A stretch of DNA of 64,000 bases from a virus. The notes beneath the pieces are model-generated. The model worked only from the letters and a program-made list of their open reading frames with translations. It did not search any database and was not told where the DNA came from. Of the stretch, positions 21,868-44,295 are shown piece after piece. The first letter of the stretch is position 1. Every line of letters begins with the position of its first letter. The position numbers and the translations under genes were made by a program. The stretch lies in IMG/VR virus record IMGVR_UViG_3300042563_002443. The stretch is one strand, 5' to 3'.

Positions 21868-21891
21868 CAATATTTATATATAAAAAACATC

Positions 21892-22323
21892 ATGATAAAA
21901 CTAAAAGATTTATACACAAAAAATTTAACAGAGGCAGAAATGCCAGATACAGAAAAACTTGGTAGAAACAATCCTGATTGGATTAATTTGGTTTCTAAAT
22001 TAAAAACTCTTTCTTATTCACCAAGAATATTAACATTTATGGACTTTGATGGTATCCCATCTCAAAGTTTGAATTGGGGAACTACTAAATCTGCTCGAGG
22101 TAAATACGGGTTTGCACTTGCATCAACCTCTCCAAACTTACCTAAAGAACGTATGGATTTATTTAACACTGAAGATAAAGAAAATCAAATAGAGATGATC
22201 AATTGGTGGAAAAGCCGCGGATATCAAATAGATAATAGATCTGAAATTTCAATAAACTTTAAAGATGCAAACAACTTAAGAAATGATATTGAATCATTTT
22301 TTAAAATTTATCCGCCAGAATAG
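21892..22323 (+). CDS. Leader-family protein (MIKLKDLYTKNLTE), unknown payload
   Basis: ATATTTATA at 21870; leader shared with 22331, 29654, 36898 and 43873. Confidence 0.65.
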   Translation: MIKLKDLYTKNLTEAEMPDTEKLGRNNPDWINLVSKLKTLSYSPRILTFMDFDGIPSQSLNWGTTKSARGKYGFALASTSPNLPKERMDLFNTEDKENQIEMINWWKSRGYQIDNRSEISINFKDANNLRNDIESFFKIYPPE

Positions 22324-22330
22324 GAACATC

Positions 22331-22990
22331 ATGATAAAATTAAAAACATTATTAGATGAATCATTTGGTGGCATGCTAGCAGCTGCAATTAGAGCAAACA
22401 ACGCAATAACGCCACATAAAAACAAATTTAAAGTTGATCCTAAACAGGTAAAAGTTGGCGATGAATTAGAGTGGTATGGCAAGGATAAAGATCCTAGAGT
22501 AACTGGTACAATTTCAAAGATTGACTCTAAAGGCATAGAGATTACTAATCTTAAGGCAGTAGGTACTAAGAAGATGGATTATGGCCTTAAAGGAGTCACA
22601 ATCAACGCTAATACAAAGTATTTTTATTTTGGTTCCTACAACAAAATGTTAAATCATTGGAAACTTAAAGACTCACAAGATACAGATCAAAACAATAATG
22701 GTTATCCAGATTCAACGGAAGGATCCTCAAATAATGAATTTACAGCATTGTTATCATCGTTAGAGTCTGATTTAAAGGCATATAATGGTGAAGAAATAAC
22801 ATATGAAGACGATGACGAAACAATGGAAATAACTGTAAGCATTTATCCAAGTGAACTCAAAAAAGAAATTGTCCAAGCCATTAACGTTATACTAAAAAAA
22901 CATCCATTATTTGAGATAGACAAAGACACTATTGATCGATATCGAGATGAAGACGGCGTTACTTTAACATTTGATATCATTAAAAAATAA
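22331..22990 (+). CDS. Leader-family protein (MIKLKTLLDE) with an SH3/KOW-like segment and a DQNNNGYPD motif
   Basis: True start is probably the ATG at 22331: context AACATCATGATAAAA is identical to that of 21892. The ORF track gives 22283. Confidence 0.65.
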   Translation: MIKLKTLLDESFGGMLAAAIRANNAITPHKNKFKVDPKQVKVGDELEWYGKDKDPRVTGTISKIDSKGIEITNLKAVGTKKMDYGLKGVTINANTKYFYFGSYNKMLNHWKLKDSQDTDQNNNGYPDSTEGSSNNEFTALLSSLESDLKAYNGEEITYEDDDETMEITVSIYPSELKKEIVQAINVILKKHPLFEIDKDTIDRYRDEDGVTLTFDIIKK

Positions 22991-23090
22991 ACAAAAAAAA
23001 CTTAACCAATTACTTTGAATTAACCCATTTATTAATTATAATTAATAAGTAAACAGAATATATTATTAACAACTTAACAAAAGGCAAAAA

Positions 23091-23852
23091 ATGGCTTTAA
23101 ATTTAGACGCTATCAAAGCGAAGCTCAACCAGCTGAATAAGCAGGATGACAAAAAACAAAATTTGTGGAAACCTGAAACAGGCAAAACTCGTATTAGGAT
23201 CGTTCCTTATATACACCGCAAAGACAATCCGTTCTTAGAATTGTATTTTCATTATGACATTAGCAAAAGATCTATGCTATCTCCGATTTCATTCGGTAAT
23301 GCAGATCCAATTGTAGAGTTTGCAGAAAAACTAAAAAAGACGGGTGACAAAGACGAATGGTTAATGGGTCGCAAGATTGAACCAAAAATGCGTACATATG
23401 TTCCCGTAATTGTTCGTGGTAAAGAATCCGAAGGAGTTAAATTTTGGGGATTCGGCAAACAAATTTACACGGAATTATTAAGCATTGTTTCAGATCCAGA
23501 TTATGGTGACATTACAGACTTGATGAATGGACGTGATATTGATGTTGAATTTACTCCAGCAGAAGGTGCAAATTTTCCAAAAACAACAATTCGTGTTAAG
23601 CCTGCAACTAGTGCAGCAACGGAAGACAAAGAAATTGCAACAAAAATCATGACTCAACCAGAGATTACAGATTTATTTCCTGAACCAACTTATGAAGAAC
23701 TAGAAACAGCTCTTAAAGAATGGATGAATCCTGAAAATGCAGACGCAGATGTTGATTCTGAAGAAGCACCAGCAACTCCAACTAAAACCGCAAAACCAAT
23801 TGCTGGTAAAGTAGAGGATGTTGCATCAGCATTTAACGATCTATTTAATTAA
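23091..23852 (+). CDS. Single-stranded DNA-binding protein (T4 gp32-like)
   Basis: LWKP..GKTRIRIVP, ELYFHY, GVKFWGFGK, DYGDITD...GRDI; acidic tail ending FNDLFN; adjacent to RecA. Confidence 0.85.
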   Translation: MALNLDAIKAKLNQLNKQDDKKQNLWKPETGKTRIRIVPYIHRKDNPFLELYFHYDISKRSMLSPISFGNADPIVEFAEKLKKTGDKDEWLMGRKIEPKMRTYVPVIVRGKESEGVKFWGFGKQIYTELLSIVSDPDYGDITDLMNGRDIDVEFTPAEGANFPKTTIRVKPATSAATEDKEIATKIMTQPEITDLFPEPTYEELETALKEWMNPENADADVDSEEAPATPTKTAKPIAGKVEDVASAFNDLFN

Positions 23853-23862
23853 GGAGTAACAA

Positions 23863-26090: not shown

Positions 26091-26126
26091 ATTTGAATTT
26101 ACAGTAATTTTACTTATAATTGTTAT

Positions 26127-27482: not shown

Positions 27483-27501
27483 AAACATATTTATATAAAA
27501 T

Positions 27502-29431: not shown

Positions 29432-29652
29432 TGATACAACCAGCATCAAAAGATTGGATACAACAAACCTTTGTAAGGGAGTTTGGAAACAAGCTCCTGG
29501 CTACGGACTTTTACTATAATGAAGACGGATATCGTGTAATGACTGAATCATATCATGTACGACGCGGATCATGTTGTGGTAATGGTTGTTTGCATTGTCC
29601 ATACACGCCAAAACATGAGACCAATAATACCAAGTTGAATAATATTTATTAA
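29431..29652 (+). CDS. Small Cys-rich protein (DUF5522-like)
   Basis: YHVRRGSCCGNGCLHCPY. Confidence 0.75.
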   Translation: MIQPASKDWIQQTFVREFGNKLLATDFYYNEDGYRVMTESYHVRRGSCCGNGCLHCPYTPKHETNNTKLNNIY

Positions 29653-29653
29653 T

Positions 29654-30334
29654 ATGATTAAACTAAAAAATTTATTATTAGAAGTACATATTGATAACAA
29701 ATTCCAACGTGAATTAATTGATAGGATAAATGATGAGTATAGGGAAGATTACAAATCATTAACACCACAAGAAATTAACGATGGTTATTGTGATATGTGG
29801 GCTTCATTGTTTGTGGATCGTTTTGGCGGAGATCATCAATGGTCTTTTGATTTTCCAAATGATCCAAATGGACATTCGTGGGTAAAATTAAATAATAAAT
29901 TTTATGATGCTGAAATGACTACGGGTACAACAAAATTAATAAATTTGCCGCATTTTCAACGAGCTATAAAAAAATATGGCACTGATTGGTTAGATACTAA
30001 ATTCTTTAATAATATTCAAAAAACAAAATATGATGCATCAAATATCAATAAAATTGAGGAAATAGGACCTCAAAATTTTATTGAGATGTATTTGGATTGG
30101 CTAGAAGAGTTATTAAATGATTTAGAAGATTCTAATGATATTGAAGCCATTAAACGGTACGATACAGTATTAAATGCTAGGTTTGCATTAGAAGATGCTG
30201 ATTCTACGGAAATTATACAATATCTACAACGAAAATATGGCAATGATGTCGATCAGATAATATTAAAAATAATCGGCGATACAACAAAATATGATGCATC
30301 AGGCATTGATACACCTGGCAATCCTAACATGTAA
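29654..30334 (+). CDS. Leader-family protein (MIKLKNLLLE) with a putative transglutaminase/papain-like Cys-His-Asp domain
   Basis: INDGYCDMWA...GHSWVKLNNKFYDAE; ATATTTATT at 29642. Confidence 0.6.
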   Translation: MIKLKNLLLEVHIDNKFQRELIDRINDEYREDYKSLTPQEINDGYCDMWASLFVDRFGGDHQWSFDFPNDPNGHSWVKLNNKFYDAEMTTGTTKLINLPHFQRAIKKYGTDWLDTKFFNNIQKTKYDASNINKIEEIGPQNFIEMYLDWLEELLNDLEDSNDIEAIKRYDTVLNARFALEDADSTEIIQYLQRKYGNDVDQIILKIIGDTTKYDASGIDTPGNPNM

Positions 30335-30395: not shown

Positions 30396-31085
30396 ATGAC
30401 AAGAAAACATCTAGAAACAGTTGCCCCTGGATATGCGAACGGTATATCATTGCAATTAGCAGTAAAGCAAACTTTAGAAGGTCCTGACGCTCAATTAACT
30501 CAGCAAGAAAAACAACAAATAATTGATAACGCTGCATATCATTACGGTTTATTTTTAACGGCACTAGGAGTATCTTGGGAATCAGATCCAAATTCATCTA
30601 ATACTCCTAATCGAGTTGCAAAAGCATATGTAAACGATTTATGGAAAGGCAGATATGAACCAATGTCAGACATTACTTCATTTCCAAGTGATGGGTATGA
30701 CGGAATTGTATTCGAAGGCGGTATTCCATTAACATCAATGTGTAGCCATCATCACCAAACCATTTCCGGAAAAGTTCATGTTGCATATATTCCAGCAGAA
30801 AATGGAAATGTAGTTGGATTAAGTAAAATTAATCGAGTAGTAGAACATTTCGGCAGACGCGGAGCTATACAAGAACAATTAACTGTAGCAATACAACATG
30901 CAATTGATGAACTTATAGAAGATAACAAAGGTGTTGCTGTAATGATTGAAGCAACTCATAATTGTGTATCTTGTAGGGGAGTAAAACATATAGGCGCTTC
31001 AATGAAGACCGCAAAATTATCCGGAGCCTTTTTAGATGATGGAAATGCTAGGTCTGAATTTTATCAATTTGTAAAAGGTTATTAA
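30396..31085 (+). CDS. folE: GTP cyclohydrolase I
   Basis: TPNRVAK, SMCSHHHQ, GLSKINR, IQEQLT, EATHNCVSCRGV. Confidence 0.95.
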   Translation: MTRKHLETVAPGYANGISLQLAVKQTLEGPDAQLTQQEKQQIIDNAAYHYGLFLTALGVSWESDPNSSNTPNRVAKAYVNDLWKGRYEPMSDITSFPSDGYDGIVFEGGIPLTSMCSHHHQTISGKVHVAYIPAENGNVVGLSKINRVVEHFGRRGAIQEQLTVAIQHAIDELIEDNKGVAVMIEATHNCVSCRGVKHIGASMKTAKLSGAFLDDGNARSEFYQFVKGY

Positions 31086-31384
31086 TGAAAAGATTACACG
31101 TAAAATTAATTAAATGGATATCCAATAAATTTGGATACAAGATTGCAATGCTTAAAGCAGCAAACGGAACAACAACTGTTGAAGGAGATATTGAACTATT
31201 AAGATATGTTGATATATCCGGATATTTCTTTAAGAAAAAACCAATTTCTAGAATACAAGCTTCTAGAGCTCCAAGATCAGCCAAAGAAATGTTTTTAGCT
31301 GAACCAGTTCCTAATATTGATAATGTTGAACCGATAGTAAAACTTACATCGAAGCAACTTAAAGATTTACAAATAATAAAATAA
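31085..31384 (+). CDS. Hypothetical protein
   Basis: 99 aa; coupled to folE by a TAATG overlap. Confidence 0.55.
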   Translation: MKRLHVKLIKWISNKFGYKIAMLKAANGTTTVEGDIELLRYVDISGYFFKKKPISRIQASRAPRSAKEMFLAEPVPNIDNVEPIVKLTSKQLKDLQIIK

Positions 31385-31387
31385 ACT

Positions 31388-31852
31388 ATGGCAAAGTATA
31401 ATTCAACAAAATTATTTGATGGTTACTCAACTTGTTTCCGGCAATGGCGAGCAGAGGATACTCATTGCAAATTCTTACATGGATATGCAGTATCTTTTAA
31501 AGTTTGGTTCGAAGGCGAATTAGATCATCGTAATTGGGTATGGGACTTTGGTGGTATGAAGCGATCTAAAACTAAAATTGCTGGAATGTCTCCTATAGAA
31601 TATTTTTCATTTTTGTTAGATCATACTACAGTTGTAGCTATTGATGATCCATATTTAGAGAAATTTCAACAAATGGATGAAGATGGTATCATACAATTAC
31701 GCATACTACCGGCAACAGGATGTGAAAAATTTGCAGAACATTTATATTATATAATCAATGCATTCTTAAAAGAAGAAACACAAAGTAGAGTAAAAGCAAT
31801 AAAAGTAGAAGTTTATGAACACGAACGAAACAGCGCAAGCTACAGTGAATAA
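31388..31852 (+). CDS. queD: 6-carboxy-5,6,7,8-tetrahydropterin synthase
   Basis: HCKFLHGY, WVWDFGG, LDHT, GCEKFAE, EVYEHERNSA; lies between folE and queE. Confidence 0.88.
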   Translation: MAKYNSTKLFDGYSTCFRQWRAEDTHCKFLHGYAVSFKVWFEGELDHRNWVWDFGGMKRSKTKIAGMSPIEYFSFLLDHTTVVAIDDPYLEKFQQMDEDGIIQLRILPATGCEKFAEHLYYIINAFLKEETQSRVKAIKVEVYEHERNSASYSE

Positions 31853-32216
31853 TGATACGTATGTATCACTTTATGAATATTTAGGTAAAGGGTCTCGAGA
31901 CACCGGAGTTGGAAAACTAGTTTCGGCCGAAGCATTAAAACGTGGTATTAAACCTCAAGTTAAATTGCTGCCTAAAGAAATGCAAAGGCCAGAATTTAAT
32001 TCAGTACAAGCATACCCAATGTCATTCTTAGATGAATACTTTGCTAATAATCTAGAACATGATATGACGCCATTTGTACGAAGATCTGCATTAACTATAG
32101 TACAAGCAAGAATTGATACCCTAGAAAAAAATTATGCAGAGTTAATTAAACTACTGCCAAATGCAACAATTGAATTAACAGCAGAAGATACACAAGACGA
32201 CGATTTACCATTTTAA
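31815..32216 (+). CDS. Hypothetical protein (start may be the GTG at 31845)
   Basis: YVSLYEYLGKG...YPMSFLDEYF; acidic C-terminus DDDLPF. Confidence 0.55.
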   Translation: MNTNETAQATVNNDTYVSLYEYLGKGSRDTGVGKLVSAEALKRGIKPQVKLLPKEMQRPEFNSVQAYPMSFLDEYFANNLEHDMTPFVRRSALTIVQARIDTLEKNYAELIKLLPNATIELTAEDTQDDDLPF

Positions 32217-32218
32217 TT

Positions 32219-32992
32219 ATGAATAAAAGAATAGAAGATTACAACAAGACACTACCAATTCTAGAACTATACCGCTGTATACAGAGTGAAGGTTCAAGAT
32301 TTGGACGTCCAACAATCGCAGTAAGAACTACCGGATGTACTCACCGATGCTTTTTTGGTGAAGGAGGGTGGTGCGACAGCTGGTACACAAGTATTCATCC
32401 GGAAAAAGGAACATTTACGTTCCAGGACATTATTAACATTTATGATGAGAACCCACACATTAAAGAAATGATGTTGACGGGTGGATCACCCACAATGCAT
32501 CCAGCATTGGTAAACGAACTAACACACTTTGCACATGAAAGAGATATACTCATTACTATTGAAACTGAAGGTAGCCATTTCGTACCTACCGACTATCCTA
32601 TTGGCCTTATATCTCTCAGTCCAAAGTTTGGTAATTCTGTACCCGTACTTGGTGCTGTTACGCCTCAAGGAGCGATTGTGGATCAAAGAATGATTGATCA
32701 ACATAACAAGTTTAGAATGAAGCTTGCTACAATGAGCCAGATGATTCACTTCCATACAGATTACCATTTTAAACCAGTATGGGACGGAACGGACAAGAAT
32801 CTACAAGAAATTGAAAACATTCGCACTCTACTTAATATCCCAAAAGACAAAACATATATCATGCCCGCAGGAGATACTAGAGAAACTCTTGTAGAGATGT
32901 ATCCACTCGTATTCGATATGTGTGCTGAGAAGGGATATAACATGACCGGCAGAGACCATATAATTGCATTTGACACTAAACGAGGAGTATAA
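32219..32992 (+). CDS. queE: 7-carboxy-7-deazaguanine synthase (radical SAM)
   Basis: IQSEGSRFGRPTIAVRTTGCTHRC...WCDSWYT, LTGGSP, TIETEGS, SLSPK, YIMPAG. Confidence 0.9.
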   Translation: MNKRIEDYNKTLPILELYRCIQSEGSRFGRPTIAVRTTGCTHRCFFGEGGWCDSWYTSIHPEKGTFTFQDIINIYDENPHIKEMMLTGGSPTMHPALVNELTHFAHERDILITIETEGSHFVPTDYPIGLISLSPKFGNSVPVLGAVTPQGAIVDQRMIDQHNKFRMKLATMSQMIHFHTDYHFKPVWDGTDKNLQEIENIRTLLNIPKDKTYIMPAGDTRETLVEMYPLVFDMCAEKGYNMTGRDHIIAFDTKRGV

Positions 32993-33305: not shown

Positions 33306-33321
33306 AAAAAAAGAATCAGTT

Positions 33322-33621
33322 ATGAATTGGAAACCAATTGGAGATCAAGTACTCCTAAAACAACTAGAAAAACAAGACAAAACAAAGAGTGGTATCATTA
33401 TAATGAACTCATTGGATGATTATATTGAATGTGATGTTATGGCCGCAGGAGACGGGTTATTTACGCAAACAGGTACAAAAATACCAATGACTGTTAAAGT
33501 TGGAGATCGCATAAAAATCTATTCCGGAAATTTAGGAGCACAAAAGAAAGTGCAAGTAGAAAATAACGATTTTATTTTGGTTCGAGAACATGAAATTGCT
33601 ATGATAAATACAAAACCATGA
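33322..33621 (+). CDS. groES: Co-chaperonin GroES-like protein
   Basis: KPIGDQVLLK...KTKSGII...AAGDG...PMTVKVGDRI...LVREHEI. Confidence 0.9.
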   Translation: MNWKPIGDQVLLKQLEKQDKTKSGIIIMNSLDDYIECDVMAAGDGLFTQTGTKIPMTVKVGDRIKIYSGNLGAQKKVQVENNDFILVREHEIAMINTKP

Positions 33622-34330: not shown

Positions 34331-36849
34331 TGTATAAAGCAATCGGTTATGATAAAAAAGCGGGCATCATGCACGTTTGGGATGATGAATTAGGACATCG
34401 CAAATTTCCTTTTCAGGCATATGGATATTTACCAAATCCAAATGGAACATATCAAGCACTTGACGGAACACGATTGAATCAAGTACCTGGCAATCATCGA
34501 GATAATCCTAAATCATATGAATCTGACTTAAATGAAGAAGTTAGAACATTGATTGATTTATATTATGAATCAGATGAGCCGTCTAAAGGACATAAAGATT
34601 TCTTTTTTGATATTGAAACTGCAAAAGATGAAAATGGCTTCAGCACAATACAAGATGTTCGCACCGCAATTACTTCGATTGCATATTATGATAAAGCAGG
34701 AAAAGATCGAAGAGTATTGATCTTAGACGAACAAGGTCGCATCAAAGAACGTGAAATACAAGGCGAAGGATATGCAATAGAAATATTCCGCAATGAAAAA
34801 GATCTATTAACTAGATTTATCAACATATTTGCACAAATACAACCAACAGTTATAACCGGGTGGAATACAGACGGATATGATGTTCCTTATTTGTTAGGCC
34901 GATGCAAAAAAGTATTGGGTGCACAAGCAATCAAGAAATTTTCTCCTGCCGGCATAGTAGAACAAGGCAGAACCGGTAAATGGAAGATACTTGGAGTTTC
35001 TAGTTTAGATTACATTAAATTGTATAAAAACTTTACATATACCGAACTACCTAATTATCGATTAGACACAGTTGCTAAAAAAGAATTGGATCGAGGTAAA
35101 GTTGAATATGATGGAGACTTGGATACATTGTTTACCCAAGATATTCATAAATTTGCATATTATAATATGACGGATGTTGATCTTGTTTATGAAATGGATG
35201 AAAAGCTTCAACTTTTAAATTTAGCAAGATCGATTTGTCACAAAGGGCATGTTCCATATGAAGATGTATATTATGCATCCAAATATTTGGATGGTGCTGC
35301 CATTGTTGATTTAAAACGCAATGGATTTGTTGCACCGAACAAGCAATTTAGATTTATTGAAGAAGAAACAATGGCAGATGCATTAGCTGGTGCATATGTA
35401 ATGGCACCTGTACCTGGCCTGTATAAATGGATATATGACTTAGATTTAACTTCATTGTATCCAAGCATCATTATGACTGCAAATATATCTCCAGAAACTA
35501 AAGTAGGAGTTGTAGAAAATTGGAATCAAGAATGCATGTTAAACTCAGATTCAATGCCGGCTACAATAACATTGGCTTCTGGTAAAACACAACAAGTTGA
35601 TAATGTTAAAACATGGTTGGCACAACACAATTATAGTATTGCTAGCAACGGCGCTACATATAACAATGAACAACGAGGGTTTCTTCCAACTATTCTAGAA
35701 AAATGGTTTAATGAACGTGTTATCTTTAAAGATAAGCGTGACACATTTAAATTTGGTACAGAAGAATATAAATTTTATGATGCATTGCAATTAACACAAA
35801 AAGTATTGCTTAATTCATTTTATGGAGTTTTAGGACTTAAAACATTTCGTTTCTATGATTTAGATAATGCCGGAGCTATTACAGCAGTAGGTCAAAGTGT
35901 AATAAAATTTTCAGCTAAGGTTATTAATAACTATTACAAAAAAGAATTGGGAGTTGACCACTTTATTAATGATAGCGGAGACAAAGCAGAATTTGCATTT
36001 TACACTGATACGGATTCAACCTTTTGTAGCAGTTTGCCATTAATTGAACACCGATTTCCTGGATGTGACACTAACGATGAAACATTCATGATTGAACAAA
36101 CTAATGCAATTGCATCTGAAATACAAACAACGGTTAATACAATGTATGACCAATATGCAAAAGTATTCCATAATACAACCGCACATCGATTCCAAATTAA
36201 ACAAGAATATATTGCAAAATCCGGTTTATGGATTGCCAAAAAAAGATATGCCCAATGGGTTATATTCAAAGAAGGCAAATCTACGGATAAATTGGATGTA
36301 AAAGGATTAGATGTTGTTAGATCCAGTTTCCCGGAAGATTTCAAAAAGATAATGAAAGAAACATTGTGGTATATCCTTAAAGGAAGAAACAAGCAAGATA
36401 CTTCAACATTGATACATAACTTTAAAAATAACATTAAAAGTTCCAAAGTATTGAATGTAATGAAGAATTCAAGTGTTAAAGAATTATCTAAATATATCAA
36501 AAAACGTAAACCGTTTACCGGTTATATAAAAGGATCGACAGCACACGTAAAAGCCGCAATTAATTTTAATGATTTATTGAGTACATTAACTACGGATATA
36601 TTACCTATATCAGACGGCGAAAAAGTAAAGTGGGGCTATTTAGTAGGCAATCCGTACGGGTTTGAAACTATTGCATTACGAGGTTATTTAGATCCACCCG
36701 AAATAGTTGCATTTGCAGAACAATACATTGATCACAATAAAATGTTCACGGCAGACCTAAGCAACAAATTCAATGATTTCTATGCAGCAATGAGTTGGGG
36801 TGCATTACCAGAAAATAACAATGCAAAAAAGTTTTTTAACTTTGGATAA
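34330..36849 (+). CDS. Family B DNA polymerase with 3'-5' exonuclease
   Basis: FFDIET, TGWNTDGYDVPY, YNMTDV; DLDLTSLYPSII, KVLLNSFYG, YTDTDS, KKRYA, KGLDVVRS. Confidence 0.95.
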   Translation: MYKAIGYDKKAGIMHVWDDELGHRKFPFQAYGYLPNPNGTYQALDGTRLNQVPGNHRDNPKSYESDLNEEVRTLIDLYYESDEPSKGHKDFFFDIETAKDENGFSTIQDVRTAITSIAYYDKAGKDRRVLILDEQGRIKEREIQGEGYAIEIFRNEKDLLTRFINIFAQIQPTVITGWNTDGYDVPYLLGRCKKVLGAQAIKKFSPAGIVEQGRTGKWKILGVSSLDYIKLYKNFTYTELPNYRLDTVAKKELDRGKVEYDGDLDTLFTQDIHKFAYYNMTDVDLVYEMDEKLQLLNLARSICHKGHVPYEDVYYASKYLDGAAIVDLKRNGFVAPNKQFRFIEEETMADALAGAYVMAPVPGLYKWIYDLDLTSLYPSIIMTANISPETKVGVVENWNQECMLNSDSMPATITLASGKTQQVDNVKTWLAQHNYSIASNGATYNNEQRGFLPTILEKWFNERVIFKDKRDTFKFGTEEYKFYDALQLTQKVLLNSFYGVLGLKTFRFYDLDNAGAITAVGQSVIKFSAKVINNYYKKELGVDHFINDSGDKAEFAFYTDTDSTFCSSLPLIEHRFPGCDTNDETFMIEQTNAIASEIQTTVNTMYDQYAKVFHNTTAHRFQIKQEYIAKSGLWIAKKRYAQWVIFKEGKSTDKLDVKGLDVVRSSFPEDFKKIMKETLWYILKGRNKQDTSTLIHNFKNNIKSSKVLNVMKNSSVKELSKYIKKRKPFTGYIKGSTAHVKAAINFNDLLSTLTTDILPISDGEKVKWGYLVGNPYGFETIALRGYLDPPEIVAFAEQYIDHNKMFTADLSNKFNDFYAAMSWGALPENNNAKKFFNFG

Positions 36850-36897
36850 CAAATTGTTTTTTTTTTGTGTTATATTTATATGTAAATAAGGAAAATT

Positions 36898-37188
36898 ATG
36901 ATAAAATTAAAAACCGTACTTGCAGAAAATATGCGCCGATTTGGTACGAAAAACTTAAACGAAGGAATGTTCAGTAATTTTTTACAAAGTATATTAGGAA
37001 AAACTGATGCGATGGTTGATTTTCTTACTATTTTAGAATTTGCAAGAAAAGATAAAGACGGAGAAAACGCCGATGAAGCGGTTCAGTATTTAATGGATAA
37101 ACATAATGTATCTGCAGATGAAGCGTTAAAAACTGTTACCCATGTTTATGAAAAATTTGGTCCATGGATCGAATTAACTAGAAAATAA
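36898..37188 (+). CDS. Leader-family protein (MIKLKTVLAENMRRFGTKNLNE), small helical payload
   Basis: ATATTTATA at 36872; 43 bp identical to the 43873 gene. Confidence 0.7.
   Translation: MIKLKTVLAENMRRFGTKNLNEGMFSNFLQSILGKTDAMVDFLTILEFARKDKDGENADEAVQYLMDKHNVSADEALKTVTHVYEKFGPWIELTRK
36922..36964 (+). repeat. 43-bp exact dispersed repeat, copy 1 (copy 2 at 43891-43933), encoding AENMRRFGTKNLNE
   Basis: gcagaaaatatgcgccgatttggtacgaaaaacttaaacgaag at both sites. Confidence 0.92.
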
Positions 37189-37230
37189 ATAATTATTTAT
37201 ATGTAAGATAAAGAACCAAAATGACAAATT

Positions 37231-37261
37231 AAAGTACTAGCAGCAATGTTAGTACTTTTTT
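37231..37261 (+). terminator. Rho-independent terminator
   Basis: AAAGTACTAGCA-GCAA-TGTTAGTACTTT followed by a T-tract. Confidence 0.85.
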
Positions 37262-37308
37262 ACTGTTATAAAGGTTGGATAATATAAATACATTTATTAT
37301 AATATAGT

Positions 37309-37740
37309 ATGATTGGTTATAAAACACATTGGTACGGCAAAGAAATAGAAGGCCGTTACACTGATATCGAAACATTGTTTATTGCAGACATTAAAGCACT
37401 AGACAGAATTGTAGCAGGAAAAAATCCACACGTTTATTTTTGTTCCGGTGCAACCGCCCAATTGATCGACGATGATCGATGGGCTACGGTATTCAGAATG
37501 ATTTCTGATACTAGTTTCATAACAATCGAAGTTACTCCCGGTATGTTAGAAAAGATACCACCAATGATTCGAATTCGCGCACACATCTTGTTAATGTTAA
37601 ATTGTACTGATGCCGCATTGTTAAAACAATCAGACAGCATTAAGGTTGTATATGCAGATTATTCTTTGTATTGTACAACGGTACATAATATGCAACATGT
37701 TGTCCCAGATATGTATAAATTTGATAGAGATAAACAATGA
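37309..37740 (+). CDS. Hypothetical protein, first gene of the dpdA-containing operon
   Basis: 143 aa, WYGKEIEGRYTDIETLFIAD; sigma70-like promoter at 37275-37303. Confidence 0.6.
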   Translation: MIGYKTHWYGKEIEGRYTDIETLFIADIKALDRIVAGKNPHVYFCSGATAQLIDDDRWATVFRMISDTSFITIEVTPGMLEKIPPMIRIRAHILLMLNCTDAALLKQSDSIKVVYADYSLYCTTVHNMQHVVPDMYKFDRDKQ

Positions 37741-38138
37741 TAAGAGGAGTTATAGCAGGAAACTTTGATGTAATACATCCAGGATACATTGCCATGTTTG
37801 ATGAATGCAAAAAGCACTGCGATAGATTAATAGTGTGTCTACATGAAGATCCATCCGTTGAACGACCAGAAAAACTTAAACCAATATTACATTGGAGCGA
37901 CCGAGTAAAGATACTTGATTCACTTAGGCAAGTTGATTTTGTATTTCCATATCAAACAGAAGCTGATCTATATGAAGCTCTAGTTAAAGGAGACTTTGAT
38001 GTTAGGTTCTTAGGCGATGATTATGTAGGAAAAACTTATACCGGTTATGAATTAAACATTCCTATAAAATACCTAAACAGAGACCATGGATGGTCAACAA
38101 CTAAATACAAACAATTAATAGCAGATTCATTAAAATGA
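37737..38138 (+). CDS. Cytidylyltransferase (TagD / HxGH superfamily)
   Basis: AGNFDVIHPGY, LIVCLHEDP, RFLGDDY, RDHGWSTT. Confidence 0.85.
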   Translation: MIRGVIAGNFDVIHPGYIAMFDECKKHCDRLIVCLHEDPSVERPEKLKPILHWSDRVKILDSLRQVDFVFPYQTEADLYEALVKGDFDVRFLGDDYVGKTYTGYELNIPIKYLNRDHGWSTTKYKQLIADSLK

Positions 38139-38485
38139 AATACAGCGTAGTAGTAACATTTAACATTGAAGGATTTCATAATTGGCCTGATGCAAAAGAA
38201 ATATTTCCACAAGTAGCATTCTTATCGGATAGACATAGACATATGTTTGGATTCCGTTGTTATGCAAACGTAACACATACTGATCGCGATGAGGAATTTA
38301 TATTGTTAAACAGAAAAATACAAAAAGGATTGCGAATTGGATTTTCTGGATCTGAAACAAATGTATTAGAATTTGGATCAATGTCGTGTGAAATGATTGG
38401 AGAATGGTTGTTAGAATCATTTCCAACGTTGTATAAAGTAGAAGTTTGGGAAGATTGGGAGAATGGAGCAATAATTGAAAGATAA
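38135..38485 (+). CDS. QueD-paralogous T-fold protein, DpdL-like (putative CDG decarboxylase)
   Basis: EGFHNWP...FLSDRHRHMF (LxxxHRHxF), DRDEEFI, SCEMI, VEVWEDWENGA; lies in the dpdA operon. Confidence 0.6.
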   Translation: MKYSVVVTFNIEGFHNWPDAKEIFPQVAFLSDRHRHMFGFRCYANVTHTDRDEEFILLNRKIQKGLRIGFSGSETNVLEFGSMSCEMIGEWLLESFPTLYKVEVWEDWENGAIIER

Positions 38486-38486
38486 T

Positions 38487-39524
38487 ATGAAAATATTTTT
38501 AGTAGACTTAGAATCAATACCGACACGATATACTTGCGAGTGGAAGACACATGTTCCACAATTATTGCGTGATAATGGATTTGATGTTCAAGTTATAGAA
38601 GGAGATCATACAATTCCAGAATCAACAACACCTGGTGCATTTTTGAACTTTGGTGGTACTAACATGTACAAAGCAACACAGCTTCACAAGTTGTCTGAAT
38701 TATTTACATTAGGTAAGATTACCGCAGGAGACCATATCATTTTTACAGATGCATGGCACCCAGCTATTATCAATGTAAAATATATGAGTGAACTTCTAAA
38801 TATTCCGGTTGTAATGCACGGACTTTGGCACGCGGGTTCATATGACCCGAATGATTTTTTAGGTCGGCTCGTAGGAGATAAACCATGGATTAGGCACGCT
38901 GAACAAGCCTTTATTGGAGCACTAGATCATAATTGGATTGCAACCGCAGCACATTTTCAAATGATATGTAAAACATATGATGTATTTTTAAATTCAACGT
39001 TTGATCAAACAGGCTGGCCAATGGAATATACCCATAATATGATTACGCCTAAACCATTTAATGAAAAAGAAAATATTATTGTTTTCCCGCACCGAATAGC
39101 ACCTGAAAAACGATTAGATTTGTTTCAAGAATTAGCATCGCAGCCAGAATTAGCACATTATCAATTTATTGTAGCAATGGATCTAAATTTGACTAAAACA
39201 CAATATCATGAACTTCTTCAAAGAGCAAAGTTTGCAGTATCATTTGCAGATCAAGAAACATTGGGAATTTCAATGTATGAATCAGCTTGTGCAGGAGCAT
39301 GTACAATTGTTCCTAATAGATTATCATATATGGAAATGTATCATCCTATGTTTAAACATGCAGATTCAGTAAATGAGGCTGTGGCTGCAATATTAAAATA
39401 TGAACAACAAGACTTAACAAATGATATTGCTAAATTAACAAATTATTTACATGACCGATTTTTTTCAGCAACAAGATTAATTAATTTACTAAAAGAATAT
39501 AAAAACAATGAAAGAACAAGATAA
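38487..39524 (+). CDS. GT-B glycosyltransferase in the dpdA operon
   Basis: IFTDAWHP, GLWHAGSYDP, VFPHRIAPEK, QETLGISMYESACAG, VPNRLSYMEMY. ATG at 38487; the track starts at TTG 38475. Confidence 0.75.
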   Translation: MKIFLVDLESIPTRYTCEWKTHVPQLLRDNGFDVQVIEGDHTIPESTTPGAFLNFGGTNMYKATQLHKLSELFTLGKITAGDHIIFTDAWHPAIINVKYMSELLNIPVVMHGLWHAGSYDPNDFLGRLVGDKPWIRHAEQAFIGALDHNWIATAAHFQMICKTYDVFLNSTFDQTGWPMEYTHNMITPKPFNEKENIIVFPHRIAPEKRLDLFQELASQPELAHYQFIVAMDLNLTKTQYHELLQRAKFAVSFADQETLGISMYESACAGACTIVPNRLSYMEMYHPMFKHADSVNEAVAAILKYEQQDLTNDIAKLTNYLHDRFFSATRLINLLKEYKNNERTR

Positions 39525-40770
39525 GCGGTTCATATATTTTCCGTCGTTGTCTGCAGGCTCAATGGTCTCGGCATTCAAGAAAGATATGAAATTTGAAAAT
39601 GGAGACCCGGTAAAGTTCTTCGACTCAAGATATCCAGATAAGTGGAGGCACCCATATTTTCTAATCACAGCAGGACACCATTACAAGAAAATGGATTTCC
39701 GAGACACGATGGGCTTAGAAAAAGATGTTCTAGTATTTGGAGATTCAGGAGGATACCAAATAGCAACAGGAGCATTACCATATAGCAACGAATTGCGCGA
39801 AAAAATATTTCATTGGTTAGAAGCTAATAGTGATGTAGCAGCAAACTTAGATATTCCACCTAAAACAAAATATCGAAATAAATTTGCAGAATGTGCTGAC
39901 ATTAGTTATGACAATTTTGCTTATTTTGAAAAACATCAAAGCGGTAAGACAAAATACCTTAACATGTTGCAAGGCTCTAACACTGATGAATATACTTGGT
40001 GGTATCATAAATTTAAACATTTTGATTTTCAAGGTTGGGCAATTGGAGGTCCACAAAAATTAGTAGACTTTATGTTTGCGGTTGCATTGATGCTCAAAGA
40101 AAAAACATTTGAAAATCCTAGACTAGAATATTTGCACTTATTGGGTATTAGCAAAATATCCGACTTTTTTATTCTAGCAACATTGCAAAAATTAATGAAT
40201 AAAAATTATGGCAATAGAATCTATGTAACAACGGATTCATCATCGCCAGGACAATATCCGGTATTTGGAACATATCTTCATTCAGCAAATTATAAAACAC
40301 AAACCTTTTCGGAATTGTATTTTCCTAAAAATGCTGAATATAGAAGACAAGCTCATATTCGTCAAGGAAAAATTGGAGAAGTATCTATTGATCTATCACA
40401 ACATGTACCATGTGCATTACATTGTCCAGCATGCACCGACTTTACATATGATTTGCTAGGAGGAAAAACAGATGCTGGATTAGATCGATATTCACAAGAA
40501 GCTATGCCTAGAATGGTTGTTCACAATGTGCATTTATATGTGCAATGTGCAGAAGAAATCAATCAACTAGTAGACAGCCATGTAGAATTGCTAGAAACAG
40601 TAATACCAAGAGACTTGTATGATGTTATCTTGTCACTGCATGAAATGTTTGCCGATCCTGACGCAGCATTACAAACATATGAAAAATATATTAAAACATA
40701 TAAAAAGTTTGGTGGAAGTAGTATATCAACCACCGATGCCGAAAATTTCAATAAATACTTTACATTTTAA
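39508..40770 (+). CDS. dpdA: TGT-fold 7-deazaguanine DNA transglycosylase (DpdA-like)
   Basis: FGDSGGYQI, NLDIPP, NMLQG, GWAIGG, LHLLGIS, TDSSSP, Zn motif CALHCPAC...HN; folE/queD/queE are in the same region. Confidence 0.72.
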   Translation: MKEQDKRFIYFPSLSAGSMVSAFKKDMKFENGDPVKFFDSRYPDKWRHPYFLITAGHHYKKMDFRDTMGLEKDVLVFGDSGGYQIATGALPYSNELREKIFHWLEANSDVAANLDIPPKTKYRNKFAECADISYDNFAYFEKHQSGKTKYLNMLQGSNTDEYTWWYHKFKHFDFQGWAIGGPQKLVDFMFAVALMLKEKTFENPRLEYLHLLGISKISDFFILATLQKLMNKNYGNRIYVTTDSSSPGQYPVFGTYLHSANYKTQTFSELYFPKNAEYRRQAHIRQGKIGEVSIDLSQHVPCALHCPACTDFTYDLLGGKTDAGLDRYSQEAMPRMVVHNVHLYVQCAEEINQLVDSHVELLETVIPRDLYDVILSLHEMFADPDAALQTYEKYIKTYKKFGGSSISTTDAENFNKYFTF

Positions 40771-40784
40771 AAACAAATAAAACA

Positions 40785-41495: not shown

Positions 41496-41496
41496 T

Positions 41497-41922: not shown

Positions 41923-41925
41923 CAT

Positions 41926-42852: not shown

Positions 42853-42856
42853 AATA

Positions 42857-43072
42857 ATGTCGATATCGTATCACAAAAGCATGGTAACTGTTATATTTAA
42901 AACATCTAATAGAGCTAATGCTAAAACAAAAATAAAAACGTTTCGCAACAAATCAATTGATGATATTTTATCGGCTAAACGAATAATAGGAATTCCAGAG
43001 ACTTCAATTATTTTGGAATTAGGAATCGGCAAAGAATTAGAATATCAATACAGAAAACGATATAAATTATAA
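42857..43072 (+). CDS. Small basic hypothetical protein
   Basis: 71 aa within the clamp-loader operon. Confidence 0.55.
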   Translation: MSISYHKSMVTVIFKTSNRANAKTKIKTFRNKSIDDILSAKRIIGIPETSIILELGIGKELEYQYRKRYKL

Positions 43073-43545
43073 TGGCAAAGCAAAAAGTTATTAAATCAGC
43101 TAATACTATTAAAGCGGCAACATTGTTTGATTTTATTGATGGTGTTACTCATAAAAAGAAAGAATGGTCTGCCTGGACTGATATGGATCAAAAAGCATTT
43201 AGTCCATTCATGACAAATCGATTCTTATCAATGCGTATGGAGCTTACGGAACTTATTAATGAGTTTCAAACATATACAATTGGATTATTACGGCCACAAG
43301 AAACTTATCGATTGTATTATGATTTATTGCCTACTAACAAAACATATGCAAAATACATAAAAGGCAAATCCGAAGATAAATTCGATAAAGCATTAGTTGC
43401 TCAAATTGCAGAACATTATCAAATTAGTTTGTATGAAGCTGCAGATTACGTGGAATTAATGGATACGGCTGAATGTGAACGAATCTTAACGTTATATGGA
43501 TATAGTGATGGCGACAAGAAAAAATTATTAAAAGGAATCAAATGA
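43072..43545 (+). CDS. Clamp loader small subunit (T4 gp62-like)
   Basis: LFDFIDGV..KK, FSPFMTNRFLSM, YAKYIK, EAADYVELM. Confidence 0.7.
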   Translation: MAKQKVIKSANTIKAATLFDFIDGVTHKKKEWSAWTDMDQKAFSPFMTNRFLSMRMELTELINEFQTYTIGLLRPQETYRLYYDLLPTNKTYAKYIKGKSEDKFDKALVAQIAEHYQISLYEAADYVELMDTAECERILTLYGYSDGDKKKLLKGIK

Positions 43546-43811
43546 GCAATATACATACACAATCACATTACAGAGGTAAAGACAGCCTTTATAAATTTGC
43601 TGAAGAGTGGGCATTAAACGCCTATGAATTTGATATCATTAAACGTGTTGTAAGATGTCGACACAAAGGTTCCTTTACGGAAGACTTAACAAAGACTCAA
43701 GACTTAATTGACATTTATCTACAAGAGCAACAACATAAATATATCAAGGTAACGCCAGATTACCTAGAGCTCGATGATCCATTTATTTCTACAGATGTAA
43801 TGCCGTTATAG
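43542..43811 (+). CDS. DUF3310-like protein
   Basis: QSHY...EFDIIKRVVRCRHKGSFTEDLTK. Confidence 0.55.
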   Translation: MSNIHTQSHYRGKDSLYKFAEEWALNAYEFDIIKRVVRCRHKGSFTEDLTKTQDLIDIYLQEQQHKYIKVTPDYLELDDPFISTDVMPL

Positions 43812-43839
43812 GTTTGAATATGCAATAAAATTTTATATA
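43806..43839 (+). repeat. 34-bp direct repeat, copy 1 (copy 2 at 44363-44396), flanking the 43873 gene
   Basis: ttataggtttgaatatgcaataaaattttatata at both sites; it contains the sigma70-like promoter. Confidence 0.9.
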
Positions 43840-43872
43840 CTATATTTATATAAAAATTTAAAGGATAGTATT

Positions 43873-44295
43873 ATGAAAAAAAACATCTTAGCAGAAAATA
43901 TGCGCCGATTTGGTACGAAAAACTTAAACGAAGATGAAGATCAAAATAACAATGGATACCCAGATGATTCCGAATCAGTCCTTAAAGGCGGAACTGGAAT
44001 TGATGGTATTAAACGATCCACCGGGAATAAAGTAAAACAATTTATTAAACTAATAGGTAAAGATTCTGTAGATTGGTTTGATAACTTAGATGTTAATTAT
44101 CTCCCATCACAATATGCGTCAGCATTAAAAAAATTAGGAATTAATCAACATACTGCATTAGTAGCACCATATGAGCTTCGAGGTAATGATATTAGCGATA
44201 TTATCAATGCAGCAAATCAATCTAATATACGCTATATTGAAATTTTAGACAGAGCCGGAGGCGGGCGACTAATTATATTTACATCAAGACAATAA
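43873..44295 (+). CDS. Leader-family protein (MKKNILAENMRRFGTKNLNE-DEDQNNNGYPDD)
   Basis: ATATTTATA at 43842; shares its leader with 36898 and DQNNNGYPD with 22331. Confidence 0.7.
   Translation: MKKNILAENMRRFGTKNLNEDEDQNNNGYPDDSESVLKGGTGIDGIKRSTGNKVKQFIKLIGKDSVDWFDNLDVNYLPSQYASALKKLGINQHTALVAPYELRGNDISDIINAANQSNIRYIEILDRAGGGRLIIFTSRQ

What the first reader, a model, noticed from the sequence alone, without database searches (positions are those of the whole stretch)
21870..44295. Dispersed family of late-promoter cassettes with a shared N-terminal leader: a candidate capsid-targeting (injected cargo) system
Seen: five genes with unrelated bodies, scattered through the replication region, share a mosaic N-terminus: 21892 MIKLKDLYTKNLTE, 22331 MIKLKTLLDE, 29654 MIKLKNLLLE, 36898 MIKLKTVLAENMRRFGTKNLNE, 43873 MKKNILAENMRRFGTKNLNE. 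20263 (MNIDSILTE) may be a sixth. Four of them, plus 20263, sit just downstream of the ATATTTAT(A/T) motif that also precedes the structural genes; 22331 is the second gene of the 21892 unit. Every leader ends in L-x-E. Established: T4 internal proteins IPI/II/III carry a ~10-aa capsid-targeting sequence that the prohead protease gp21 cleaves after Glu; they are packaged and injected, and IPI* blocks the GmrSD restriction enzyme. Inference: this is an analogous, larger, modular system in which a reusable promoter-plus-leader routes variable effector or anti-defence payloads into the capsid for delivery at infection.
Basis: partly seen in the sequence, partly recalled or inferred. Interest (0 to 1): 0.85.

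Follow-up and report, generated by a model that had tools for sequence, protein, structure and literature searches.

The report
Shared virion-targeting leader on swappable phage genes
An uncultured T4-like phage of lake Bacteroidota puts one short N-terminal tag, ending in the cut site of its head protease, on many unrelated late genes, so the tag probably loads these proteins into the virion, as T4 does with its injected internal proteins.

Summary
Five ORFs (21892, 22331, 29654, 36898, 43873) start with one mosaic leader. 20263 is not a member.

The leader has a 10-aa short form (MIKLK-x-LL-x-E) and a 20-22-aa long form. The long form is the short form plus NMRRFGTKNL-x-E, so it holds two [L/I]-x-E sites.

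- **Spread:** a profile of the long form finds 1,079 protein clusters (50% identity) among 1.84 billion, almost always at residue 1. Conservation stops right after the Glu.
- **Level of constraint:** synonymous codons vary freely, so selection acts on the peptide.
- **Host phages:** the carriers are T4-like. A gp21-type (S77) prohead protease was found in 5/5 complete relatives, in 7/10 contigs found through the leader, and in 2/5 fragments of the window's closest relatives.
- **Head link:** in some relatives a leader gene lies inside the head module. Head-module proteins have similar N-termini.
- **Expression:** leader genes sit behind the late motif of the structural genes more often than other genes do.
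- **Cargo:** cargoes swap between near-identical phages. They are small, mostly acidic unknowns, plus peptidoglycan hydrolases and a probable papain-like enzyme.

Best reading (about 0.55): a T4-style capsid-targeting propeptide. Packaging, cleavage and injection are untested.

The scan noted this leader in another window of the same genome, not on other DNA.

The parts
21870..21878 (+). Late-type promoter motif ATATTTATA, 13 nt before the ATG of 21892.
   Evidence: The same motif precedes the sheath, tube and hub genes.
21892..22323 (+). Leader gene 1 (143 aa). It has a hybrid 14-aa leader, MIKLKDLYTKNLTE, which is the short-form start joined to the TKNL-x-E end. The cargo is 129 aa, pI 5.6, with no known family.
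22331..22990 (+). Leader gene 2 (219 aa), second gene of the 21892 unit. It has the 10-aa leader MIKLKTLLDE. The cargo is a mosaic of two modules joined by an NNNGYPD linker.
   Evidence: L208 has leader plus N-half only. L182 has leader plus linker plus C-half only, at 96% identity.
22679..22720 (+). D-x-D-Q-NNNGYPD-x-T-E linker module inside gene 22331.
   Evidence: 24/28 nt identical to the copy in 43873, with differences at third codon positions. The linker is present in 17 of 109 long-leader cargoes.
29654..30334 (+). Leader gene 3 (226 aa). It has the leader MIKLKNLLLE, a conserved domain of about 115 aa with Cys46, His74 and Asp85 (probably a papain-like hydrolase), and a variable helical tail. 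A motif variant lies at 29642-29650, only 3 nt from the ATG.
   Evidence: 57 homologues; the leader is kept in nearly all of the 30 aligned. (pLDDT 90). (weak but uniform papain-like, NlpC/P60 and protein-glutaminase matches).
36872..36880 (+). Late-type promoter motif, 17 nt before the ATG of 36898.
36898..37188 (+). Leader gene 4 (96 aa). It has the full 22-aa long leader, which is the short form plus NMRRFGTKNLNE. The cargo is 74 aa, pI 5.0. The gene occupies a slot after polB that is empty in most relatives.
37231..37258 (+). Hairpin terminator that closes the 36898 cassette, followed by TTTTACTGT.
43806..43845 (+). Left copy of a 40-nt direct repeat that brackets the 43873 cassette. It contains an early-type TTGAAT-N16-TATACT promoter. 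The right copy is at 44363-44402 (39/40).
43842..43850 (+). Late-type promoter motif, 22 nt before the ATG of 43873.
43873..44295 (+). Leader gene 5 (140 aa). It has a 20-aa long leader, MKKNILAE plus NMRRFGTKNLNE, followed at once by the NNNGYPD linker (43933-43974). The cargo is 120 aa, pI 5.3.
44328..44351 (+). Hairpin terminator that closes the 43873 cassette, followed by TTTTTACTGT.
20263..21474 (+). Not a member. This late gene (403 aa) has its own conserved N-terminal module. In relatives it is a frequent upstream neighbour of leader cassettes.

Best explanation
**What it is.** The leader is a cleavable virion-targeting (capsid-targeting) propeptide of a T4-like head-assembly system.

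**Proposed course of events.**
1. Late in infection the cassettes are transcribed from the promoter type used by the structural genes.
2. The N-terminal 10 aa (M-I/x-K-L-K-x-[IL]-L-x-E) dock the protein onto the scaffolding core of the prohead. The long form adds a second 12-aa segment.
3. The gp21-type S77 prohead protease then cuts after the Glu of the [L/I]-x-E site or sites and frees the cargo inside the head.
4. The cargo leaves with the DNA at the next infection.

**How the repertoire changes.** Because only the leader is needed, cargoes are exchanged by recombination at three places: the leader, an NNNGYPD linker, and the flanking promoter and terminator sequences. This gives a large, fast-changing repertoire.

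**Shown here.**
- The leader family exists and has a sharp boundary at the Glu.
- Constraint acts on the peptide, not the DNA.
- The leader co-occurs with the S77 protease and with T4-type head genes.
- Leader genes are enriched behind the late motif.
- Leader genes occur inside the head module.
- Cargoes are swapped between close relatives.
- Some cargoes are peptidoglycan hydrolases.

**Inferred, not shown.** Docking to the core, cleavage, packaging, ejection, and any anti-defence role.
For: **1. Format.** T4's capsid-targeting sequence is 10 aa, MKTYQEFIAE (PMC8442874). Residues 4 and 7 serve targeting, and residues 8 and 10 serve processing (PMC9026906). Known gp21 sites include ITE-6, LTE-619 and LIE-9 (PMC5694885, PMC9026906). 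The short leader here is also 10 aa, with I/L at position 7, L at position 8 and E at position 10.

**2. Boundary.** Among 132 distinct long leaders, 123 have [LI]-x-E straight after TKN. Column entropy is at most 2.8 bits up to the Glu and at least 3.1 bits from the next residue on. All 148 motif-bearing proteins among the top 149 library hits have Glu at P1, and the leader starts within the first 11 or so residues in 144 of them.

**3. Peptide-level constraint.** At fixed residues the codons vary freely. One Arg uses AGA 52, CGT 21, CGA 20, CGG 17 and CGC 5, and a Leu uses four codons.

**4. Protease.** PF03420 (S77) was found as follows, always at E about 1e-32:
- 5/5 complete or near-complete relatives
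- 7/10 partial contigs found through the leader alone
- 2/5 fragments of the window's closest relatives, at 85-86% polB identity
Portal, protease and major head protein were confirmed with PHROGs.

**5. Head module.** In L106, L168, L195, L200 and L204 a long-leader gene lies between the bS21-like ORF and the scaffold gene, with two different cargoes. Head-module proteins of G003 and G004 have related N-termini ending in [LI]-x-E: MKKLKHSKYKNTGILFE, MKTPNLKFILE, MMNSLKKLYRDFFGLTE, and the protease MSKQLIVE...LTE-20.

**6. Late motif.** 12 of 23 leader genes have the exact motif within 25 nt upstream, against about 15% of all genes. Most of the rest follow another leader gene.

**7. Cargo turnover.** The slot after polB is empty in most relatives. 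It holds different leader cassettes in the window, in L001 (100% polB identity), L003 (99%), L005 and others.

**8. Entry enzymes.** Leader-bearing proteins include M23 plus tail lysozyme, lysozyme plus LysM, PG_binding plus GH19, and lysozyme2 plus SLT. G003 also has a leaderless Amidase_2 flanked by membrane proteins, the likely true endolysin.
Against: - There is no direct evidence that any of these proteins is in a virion or is cleaved.
- No cultured phage in the collection carries the leader, so no proteome can be consulted.
- [LI]-x-E is a frequent tripeptide. A loose N-terminal pattern also hits RNR and RNase H.
- The window's own head genes and protease lie outside the window and could not be read.
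- Most cargoes are acidic (68% with pI below 6), unlike the highly basic T4 internal proteins.
- 9 of 132 long leaders lack the Glu.
- 29654 has no credible late promoter of its own.
- Modular hydrolases with a peptidoglycan-binding domain could be endolysins rather than virion proteins.
- The leader has no sequence similarity to the T4 capsid-targeting sequence.
Confidence: 0.55

Rival explanations
1. The leader is a real peptide tag, but for some other shared fate. Candidates are incorporation into the tail or baseplate rather than the head, docking to a common phage or host partner (chaperonin, membrane), export towards the cell wall, or keeping enzymes inactive until late proteolysis.
For: - Several tagged proteins are peptidoglycan hydrolases, including 'phage tail lysozyme' domains. 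In many phages such enzymes sit in the tail or act from inside as endolysins.
- The phage lineage encodes GroES, and its relatives encode GroEL.
- Peptide-level conservation fits any protein-protein docking role.
Against: - The leader has no hydrophobic core, so it is not a Sec, Tat or lipoprotein signal (direct reading).
- Its length, its Glu end and its doubled [LI]-x-E match prohead-protease substrates.
- Leader genes lie inside the head module next to the protease and scaffold genes.
- A leaderless amidase next to membrane proteins already fills the endolysin role in G003.
- A test for an amphipathic helix was not significant.
Confidence: 0.22
2. The shared sequence is mainly a DNA-level device: a promoter plus translation-start cassette and recombination junction that lets late accessory genes be duplicated and swapped. 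On this reading the conserved peptide is a by-product.
For: - 36898 and 43873 share 43/43 nt.
- The 43873 cassette is bracketed by a 40-nt direct repeat.
- Both cassettes end in similar terminators.
- Three tandem copies in G003 share their upstream region.
- Cargo modules recombine at the leader and at the linker.
- The arrangement ATATTTATTAAT-ATG recurs.
Against: - Across phages the peptide stays fixed while third codon positions vary, and even the Arg codon family changes.
- The long leader uses G+C-rich codons, so A+T-rich start-site selection does not explain it.
- Conservation ends at one residue, the Glu, in hundreds of unrelated proteins. This points to a protein boundary, not a DNA boundary.
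- Recombination at the leader is compatible with the main reading and is expected under it.
Confidence: 0.12
3. The resemblance is chance, or an artefact of ORF calling in A+T-rich DNA.
For: The motif ATATTTATW alone is not over-represented in shuffles of the window (19 found against 12.8 expected).
Against: - All four MIKLK occurrences lie at start codons of long + strand ORFs.
- A profile finds 1,079 cluster representatives at E <= 1e-3.
- The motif is strand-biased and position-biased at p = 2e-12 to 1e-28.
Confidence: 0.01

Closest known systems
T4 and T-even internal proteins (IPI, IPII, IPIII and further Ips) with their capsid-targeting sequence, processed by the gp21 prohead protease
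   Same: - A roughly 10-aa N-terminal leader is the only thing shared by otherwise unrelated proteins.
- The leader ends in hydrophobic-[I/L]-x-Glu.
- The phage has a gp21-type S77 protease and T4-type head genes.
- The genes are non-essential-looking, variable between close relatives, and sit in hot spots (PMC3012670, PMC9026906, PMC12373910).
   Different: - There is no sequence similarity to MKTYQEFIAE.
- A second, 20-22-aa bipartite form exists with two cut-type sites.
- There are about 10-15 tagged genes per 160-kb genome and over 1,000 cargo clusters overall, against about ten Ips reported for T-evens.
- The genes are dispersed as self-contained promoter-to-terminator cassettes.
- Cargoes are mostly acidic, and some are peptidoglycan hydrolases.
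- Packaging and injection are untested.
Ejection proteins of giant phages phiKZ and SPN3US, processed by a gp21-related protease
   Same: - Many head-internal proteins carry N-terminal propeptides that are cut after Glu at a three-residue motif.
- Paralogues can share identical N-termini with two candidate sites, which may give fragments that clear the head easily (PMC5694885).
   Different: - The motif there is A/S-x-E, not L/I-x-E.
- The protease family there is S80.
- The propeptides there are long and are not one portable tag shared by hundreds of unrelated proteins.
P1 Dar system (the N-terminal 30 residues of DarB direct packaging)
   Same: An N-terminal signal is enough to load a protein, including an anti-restriction protein, into a myovirus head (PMC9024508).
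   Different: The Dar proteins share no consensus signal, and P1 lacks a gp21-type L-x-E processing logic. Here one conserved tag is reused.
PeSL-type mobile regulatory cassettes of T4-type phages (from my own knowledge of Arbiol, Comeau and Krisch 2010; not read here)
   Same: Short conserved regulatory sequences flank small accessory ORFs in plastic regions and act as crossover points. The 43873 cassette is bracketed by a repeated early-type promoter.
   Different: PeSLs are early promoters with stem-loops and carry no shared coding leader. Here the unit is late and the conserved block is translated.
T7 gp16-type internal core proteins with a lytic transglycosylase domain (from my own knowledge)
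   Same: A peptidoglycan hydrolase is carried inside the capsid and ejected at infection. This is the precedent for the tagged hydrolases seen here.
   Different: T7 is a podovirus whose core proteins have no cleavable shared tag. No homology was tested.

Membership tests
T4-type internal proteins bearing a capsid-targeting sequence | A short N-terminal leader shared by otherwise unrelated proteins of one phage | tested here: met
   There are five genes in the window and 10-15 per related genome. 109 cargoes fall into 51 unrelated clusters, and 140 further cargoes fall into 76.
T4-type internal proteins bearing a capsid-targeting sequence | The leader ends in the prohead-protease site [L/I]-x-Glu | tested here: met
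   5/5 in the window, 123/132 in IMG/VR and 148/148 among the top library hits. Conservation stops at the Glu.
T4-type internal proteins bearing a capsid-targeting sequence | The phage encodes a gp21-type (S77) prohead protease and a T4-type head module | tested here: met
   Met in relatives: 5/5 complete genomes, 7/10 contigs found through the leader, and 2/5 close fragments. The module was annotated. The window's own head genes lie outside the window and no genome is held.
T4-type internal proteins bearing a capsid-targeting sequence | Sequence similarity of the leader to the T4 sequence MKTYQEFIAE | tested here: not met
   Direct comparison shows that only the format is shared: 10 aa, hydrophobic at P4 and P3, Glu at P1. 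So this works like the T4 sequence but is not a homologue of it.
T4-type internal proteins bearing a capsid-targeting sequence | Late transcription together with the head genes | tested here: inconclusive
   The motif is shared with the structural genes and is enriched at leader genes. No expression data were available. 29654 lacks a usable copy.
T4-type internal proteins bearing a capsid-targeting sequence | The protein is packaged in the head, cleaved, and injected | not testable with these tools
   This needs virion proteomics or a leader-reporter fusion. No cultured carrier was found.
T4-type internal proteins bearing a capsid-targeting sequence | Small, highly basic cargo (T4 IPI-III; PMC8442874) | tested here: not met
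   Cargoes are small (median 124 aa) but have a median pI of 4.95, and 68% have pI below 6.
Sec, Tat or lipoprotein signal peptide | A hydrophobic core of about 10 or more residues after a charged N-region, and a lipobox Cys for lipoproteins | tested here: not met
   The leaders are 10-22 aa, charged throughout, with no hydrophobic run and no Cys.
Papain-like, NlpC/P60 or transglutaminase-like Cys-His-Asp hydrolases (cargo of 29654) | Cys at the N-terminus of a helix, then His and Asp on successive beta strands, in a shared fold | tested here: inconclusive
   Cys46, His74 and Asp85 are conserved at at least 90% (D85 invariant) and lie at a helix start and on strands 74-79 and 82-85. All fold matches are weak: protein-glutaminase Z 4.5; Tae3 and Tse1 Z 3.9; LapG Z 3.8; MepS Foldseek E 0.04. 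Nearly all of them are of this superfamily. There is no Pfam hit.
PeSL-type mobile regulatory cassettes | An early promoter plus stem-loop repeated on both sides of small accessory ORFs | tested here: inconclusive
   A 40-nt repeat with an early-type promoter flanks the 43873 cassette, and terminator hairpins close two cassettes. The other three genes show no such repeat.

The most novel reading that the evidence does not exclude
The leader is a general virion-loading and injection tag. If so, it marks the largest known repertoire of phage-delivered proteins: over 1,000 cargo families in T4-like phages of aquatic Bacteroidota. The repertoire includes cell-wall hydrolases, a minimal papain-like enzyme and hundreds of small acidic proteins of unknown function that are likely counter-defence factors. 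The bipartite long form may give two-step release through two protease sites.
Probability: 0.45. Interest if true: 0.8.

Novelty: new variant of a known kind. Interest (0 to 1): 0.64.

Why it matters
Which phage proteins travel inside the virion and act in the first seconds of infection is known for only a few model phages. It is almost unknown for uncultured ones.

If this tag works like the T4 capsid-targeting sequence, a 10-22-aa motif would identify over a thousand candidate injected proteins from sequence alone. They belong to an abundant group of lake and marine Bacteroidota phages. That would give:
- a ready list of candidates for counter-defence and entry functions;
- a natural example of cargo shuffling at a coding tag;
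- a possible handle for loading foreign proteins into such phages, as is done with T4.

These phages also carry deazaguanine DNA-modification genes, so inhibitors of modification-dependent restriction are a reasonable guess for some cargoes, by analogy with T4 Ip1-3 (PMC12373910). This last point is speculation.

Tried and rejected

- Megablast of the polB region against cultured phages found no match.
- tblastn of the 36898 protein against cultured phages found no leader match even at E <= 10.
- No whole genome is held for the window.
- Pfam and PHROGs on the five window proteins gave no hit above the curated cut-off. On 58 leader proteins they gave one chance-level hit each.
- The ESM Atlas gave nothing usable for 21892 or 22331.
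- Fold searches with the full 29654 model were swamped by its C-terminal helical hairpin. The N-domain had to be modelled alone.
- tblastn of that domain against cultured phages hit only a jumbo Pseudomonas phage ORF annotated as a dual-specificity phosphatase (31.7% identity, E 3e-6). I did not follow this up.

**Ideas tested and dropped**
- 20263 as a sixth member.
- The leader as a signal peptide, because it has no hydrophobic core.
- The leader as an amphipathic helix: its helical hydrophobic moment is no higher than in shuffles.
- A loose rule, hydrophobic-hydrophobic-x-E near residue 10, as a detector. It is enriched 3-fold at N-termini and among late genes (OR 3.9, p = 7e-4), but it also picks up RNR and RNase H.
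- The NNNGYPD linker as a calcium-binding loop of the thrombospondin type. This is only a by-eye resemblance, and no Pfam hit supports it.

Full report
**What the window is.** The window is part of an uncultured T4-like myovirus.
- It carries a tail sheath (8395), tube (10932) and hub (11536).
- It has a T4-type replication set: gp32-like SSB, RecA/UvsX-like protein, RNase H, helicase, RNR, family-B polymerase, clamp, and clamp-loader proteins 44 and 62.
- It also carries deazaguanine genes and many glycosyltransferases.
- There is no nucleotide match among cultured phages. The nearest cultured polymerase is that of Microcystis phage Mel-JY01 at 42.5% identity.
- IMG/VR holds many relatives, including complete genomes of 158-169 kb.
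- Their head module contains a bS21-like gene. This places them with the bS21 phages of freshwater Bacteroidetes described by Chen et al. 2022 (PMC9723584).

- MIKLK occurs four times in six frames, each time at the ATG of a long + strand ORF (21892, 22331, 29654, 36898). AENMRRFGTKNLNE occurs in 36898 and 43873.
- All five leaders end in L-x-E.
- The motif ATATTTAT[AT] precedes four of them and 20263, and also precedes the sheath, tube, hub and other structural genes.
- Raw counts of the 9-mer are not above shuffles. Its strand bias is 17:2 in the window, 49:7 in G003 and 45:11 in G004. Its position just upstream of starts is far beyond chance (p = 2e-12 to 1e-28).
- 20263 is not a member.
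- At 29654 the motif variant sits 3 nt from the ATG and cannot be that gene's promoter.

**Anatomy of the leader.** There are two forms.
- The short form is 10 aa: M-[I/x]-K-L-K-x-[IL]-L-x-E.
- The long form is the short form ending in L-A-E, followed by NMRRFGTKNL-x-E. It therefore carries two [L/I]-x-E sites.
- 21892 has a hybrid of the two: the short-form start joined to TKNLTE.
- In a degenerate-pattern scan of IMG/VR that did not require the final Glu, pooled with an earlier scan that did, 123 of 132 distinct leaders have [LI]-x-E right after TKN. Column entropy jumps from at most 2.8 bits to at least 3.1 bits at the first residue after the Glu.
- In polB-anchored loci, which were found without reference to the leader, every AENM-type leader was followed by TKNL-x-E.

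**Breadth.**
- A profile of 106 leaders, each with 12 cargo residues, was searched against 1.84 billion cluster representatives. It gives 1,079 proteins at E <= 1e-3.
- Of the best 149, 148 carry the motif, all with Glu at P1. In 144 the leader starts within about the first 11 residues.
- Their 140 cargoes of at least 40 aa fall into 76 BLAST-unrelated clusters.
- 109 complete cargoes from IMG/VR fall into 51 clusters.

**Peptide constraint or DNA constraint.**
- Across phages the fixed residues are written with freely varying codons. One Arg uses AGA 52, CGT 21, CGA 20, CGG 17 and CGC 5. Leu, Thr, Lys and Phe also vary. Selection therefore acts on the peptide.
- Within one genome, recent DNA exchange is also visible. 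36898 and 43873 share 43/43 nt. Both cassettes end in a hairpin terminator with the same tail.

**Link to head assembly.**
- PF03420, the T4 gp21 prohead protease family, is present in 5/5 complete or near-complete relatives. It is present in 7/10 partial contigs reached only through the leader. The three contigs without it are 31-40% complete. It is also present in two of the five nearest fragments (85-86% polB identity), about 47 kb upstream of polB.
- That distance would put the window's own copy roughly 12 kb before the window start. An earlier, unchecked note agrees with this.
- The head module of G003 and G004 reads: terminase, portal, two ORFs, protease, two ORFs, bS21-like ORF, scaffold, major head protein.
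- Its small ORFs and the protease begin with sequences that end in [LI]-x-E: MKKLKHSKYKNTGILFE, MKTPNLKFILE, MMNSLKKLYRDFFGLTE and MSKQLIVE. Some of these resemble the leader.
- In L106, L168, L195, L200 and L204 a long-leader gene, with either of two cargoes, lies inside this module just upstream of the scaffold gene.

**Late expression signal.**
- 12 of 23 leader genes in the window, G003 and G004 have the exact motif within 25 nt upstream, against about 15% of all genes. Most of the others directly follow another leader gene.
- Orthologues in G003 and G004 are not independent, so the enrichment is real but its size is uncertain.

**The cargoes.**
- The window's cargoes have no family.
- Cargoes are small (median 124 aa) and mostly acidic (68% with pI below 6, against 42% of all genes).
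- They turn over fast. The gap between polB and the next conserved gene is 24 nt in most relatives. It holds a 96-aa cassette in the window, a different 161-aa one in L001 (100% polB identity), a 401-aa one in L003 (99%), none in L004 (99%), two in L005, and still others elsewhere.
- 22331 is a mosaic. L208 has the leader plus its first half, and L182 has the leader plus linker plus its second half.
- The NNNGYPD linker occurs in 17 of 109 cargoes, and in 11 of them directly after the Glu.
- 29654 is different. It belongs to a conserved family that keeps the leader. Its N-domain models at pLDDT 90, and Cys46, His74 and Asp85 are conserved. Every weak fold match is a papain-like, NlpC/P60, transglutaminase-like or deamidase enzyme. 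The best match is Z 4.5, so this is a lead and not an assignment.
- In G003 and G004 the short leader also fronts peptidoglycan hydrolases: M23 plus tail lysozyme, lysozyme plus LysM, PG_binding plus GH19, and lysozyme2 plus SLT. At one syntenic position two unrelated hydrolases replace each other while the leader stays.
- G003 has a separate leaderless Amidase_2 between membrane proteins, the likely endolysin. The tagged hydrolases therefore look like extra, entry-type enzymes.

**Most likely mechanism.**
- The leader most likely acts as a capsid-targeting propeptide. It docks on the prohead core, is removed by the S77 protease after the Glu, and the cargo is carried in the head and delivered at infection.
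- This is what T4 does with its internal proteins. Their only shared feature is a 10-aa leader cut by gp21, and they are diverse inhibitors of host restriction (PMC3012670, PMC9026906, PMC8442874, PMC12373910).
- Shown here: the tag, its boundary, its peptide-level conservation, its association with the protease and head module, its late motif, and the cargo turnover.
- Inferred: docking, cleavage, packaging, ejection, and what the cargoes do.
- I put this reading at about 0.55.

**Rivals.**
- A tag for another shared fate, such as the tail, a common partner or export, keeps about 0.22. The main reason is that hydrolases are among the cargoes.
- A mainly DNA-level cassette keeps about 0.12. 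Recombination at the leader is real, but the codon data argue that the peptide is what is selected.
- Chance is excluded.

**Comparison and novelty.**
- The principle is known from T-even phages, and in looser form from phiKZ-like phages and P1 (PMC5694885, PMC9024508).
- This leader is not homologous to the T4 sequence.
- It has a bipartite long form.
- It sits in free-standing late cassettes scattered through the genome.
- It tags far more cargo families, of a different character.
- I class it as a new variant of a known kind.
- The scan had noted the same leader in another window of this genome, but not on other DNA.

Noticed in passing
window 43806-43845 and 44363-44402: A 40-nt direct repeat (39/40) brackets the whole 43873 cassette. 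It holds an early-type TTGAAT-N16-TATACT promoter. It looks like the footprint of cassette insertion or excision at a promoter.
   Followed up: partly
window 22679-22720 and 43933-43974; 17 of 109 cargoes in IMG/VR loci: A D-x-D-Q-NNNGYPD-x-T-E linker module is reused between the leader and the cargo, or between two cargo modules. By eye it resembles a calcium-binding loop. There is no Pfam support.
   Followed up: partly
window 29642-29656; also at several leader genes of G003 and G004 (for example G003 oriented 19601, 105711, 146717): The arrangement ATATTTATTAAT-ATG recurs, with the late-type motif only 3 nt from the start codon of MI[KR]LK genes. It may be a leaderless transcript or a conserved translation-start context. 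It remains unexplained.
   Followed up: no
L090:6754-6990 (G003 head module), with counterparts in L106, L168 and L204: A ribosomal protein bS21-like gene lies between the protease and scaffold genes. AAGGA-like motifs precede many late genes in the window, for example before 8395, 10932, 36898 and 43873.
   Followed up: no
window 36849-37309 and the same slot in L001-L080: The polB-downstream gap is an insertion hot spot. It is empty (24 nt) in most relatives, holds leader cassettes in some, and holds an HNH endonuclease in L062 and L063.
   Followed up: yes
window 20263-21474 and relatives (L182, L129, L103 and others): This late gene family has a strongly conserved N-terminal stretch of about 45 aa (ILTEW-x-YRLP-x-GYP) and a very divergent remainder (24-75% identity). 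It often lies just upstream of leader cassettes.
   Followed up: partly
window 30396-32992 and 37309-40770: The window carries folE, queD and queE genes, a second QueD-like gene, a cytidylyltransferase-like gene, a glycosyltransferase and a DpdA-like gene. Together they suggest deazaguanine-modified DNA. This may bear on what injected cargoes have to counter.
   Followed up: no
G003 oriented 126.3-129.0 kb (L092:6342-9627): Three tandem long-leader genes lie on the minority strand. They share a cargo family (AAQRQLVVKSIMETI...), and at least two of them have near-identical promoter regions. In some members of this family elsewhere the P1 Glu is replaced by Asp, Gly or Ala.
   Followed up: no
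P0074 (236 aa, from the protein library): A degenerate leader-like stretch (KNMRRSGTKNLSE) is followed five residues later by a full leader inside one called protein. It is either a gene fusion or a read-through of two cassettes.
   Followed up: no
window 33322-33621; G003 oriented 153254-154864: The phage encodes a GroES-like co-chaperonin, and its relatives encode a GroEL-like chaperonin behind a late motif.
   Followed up: no
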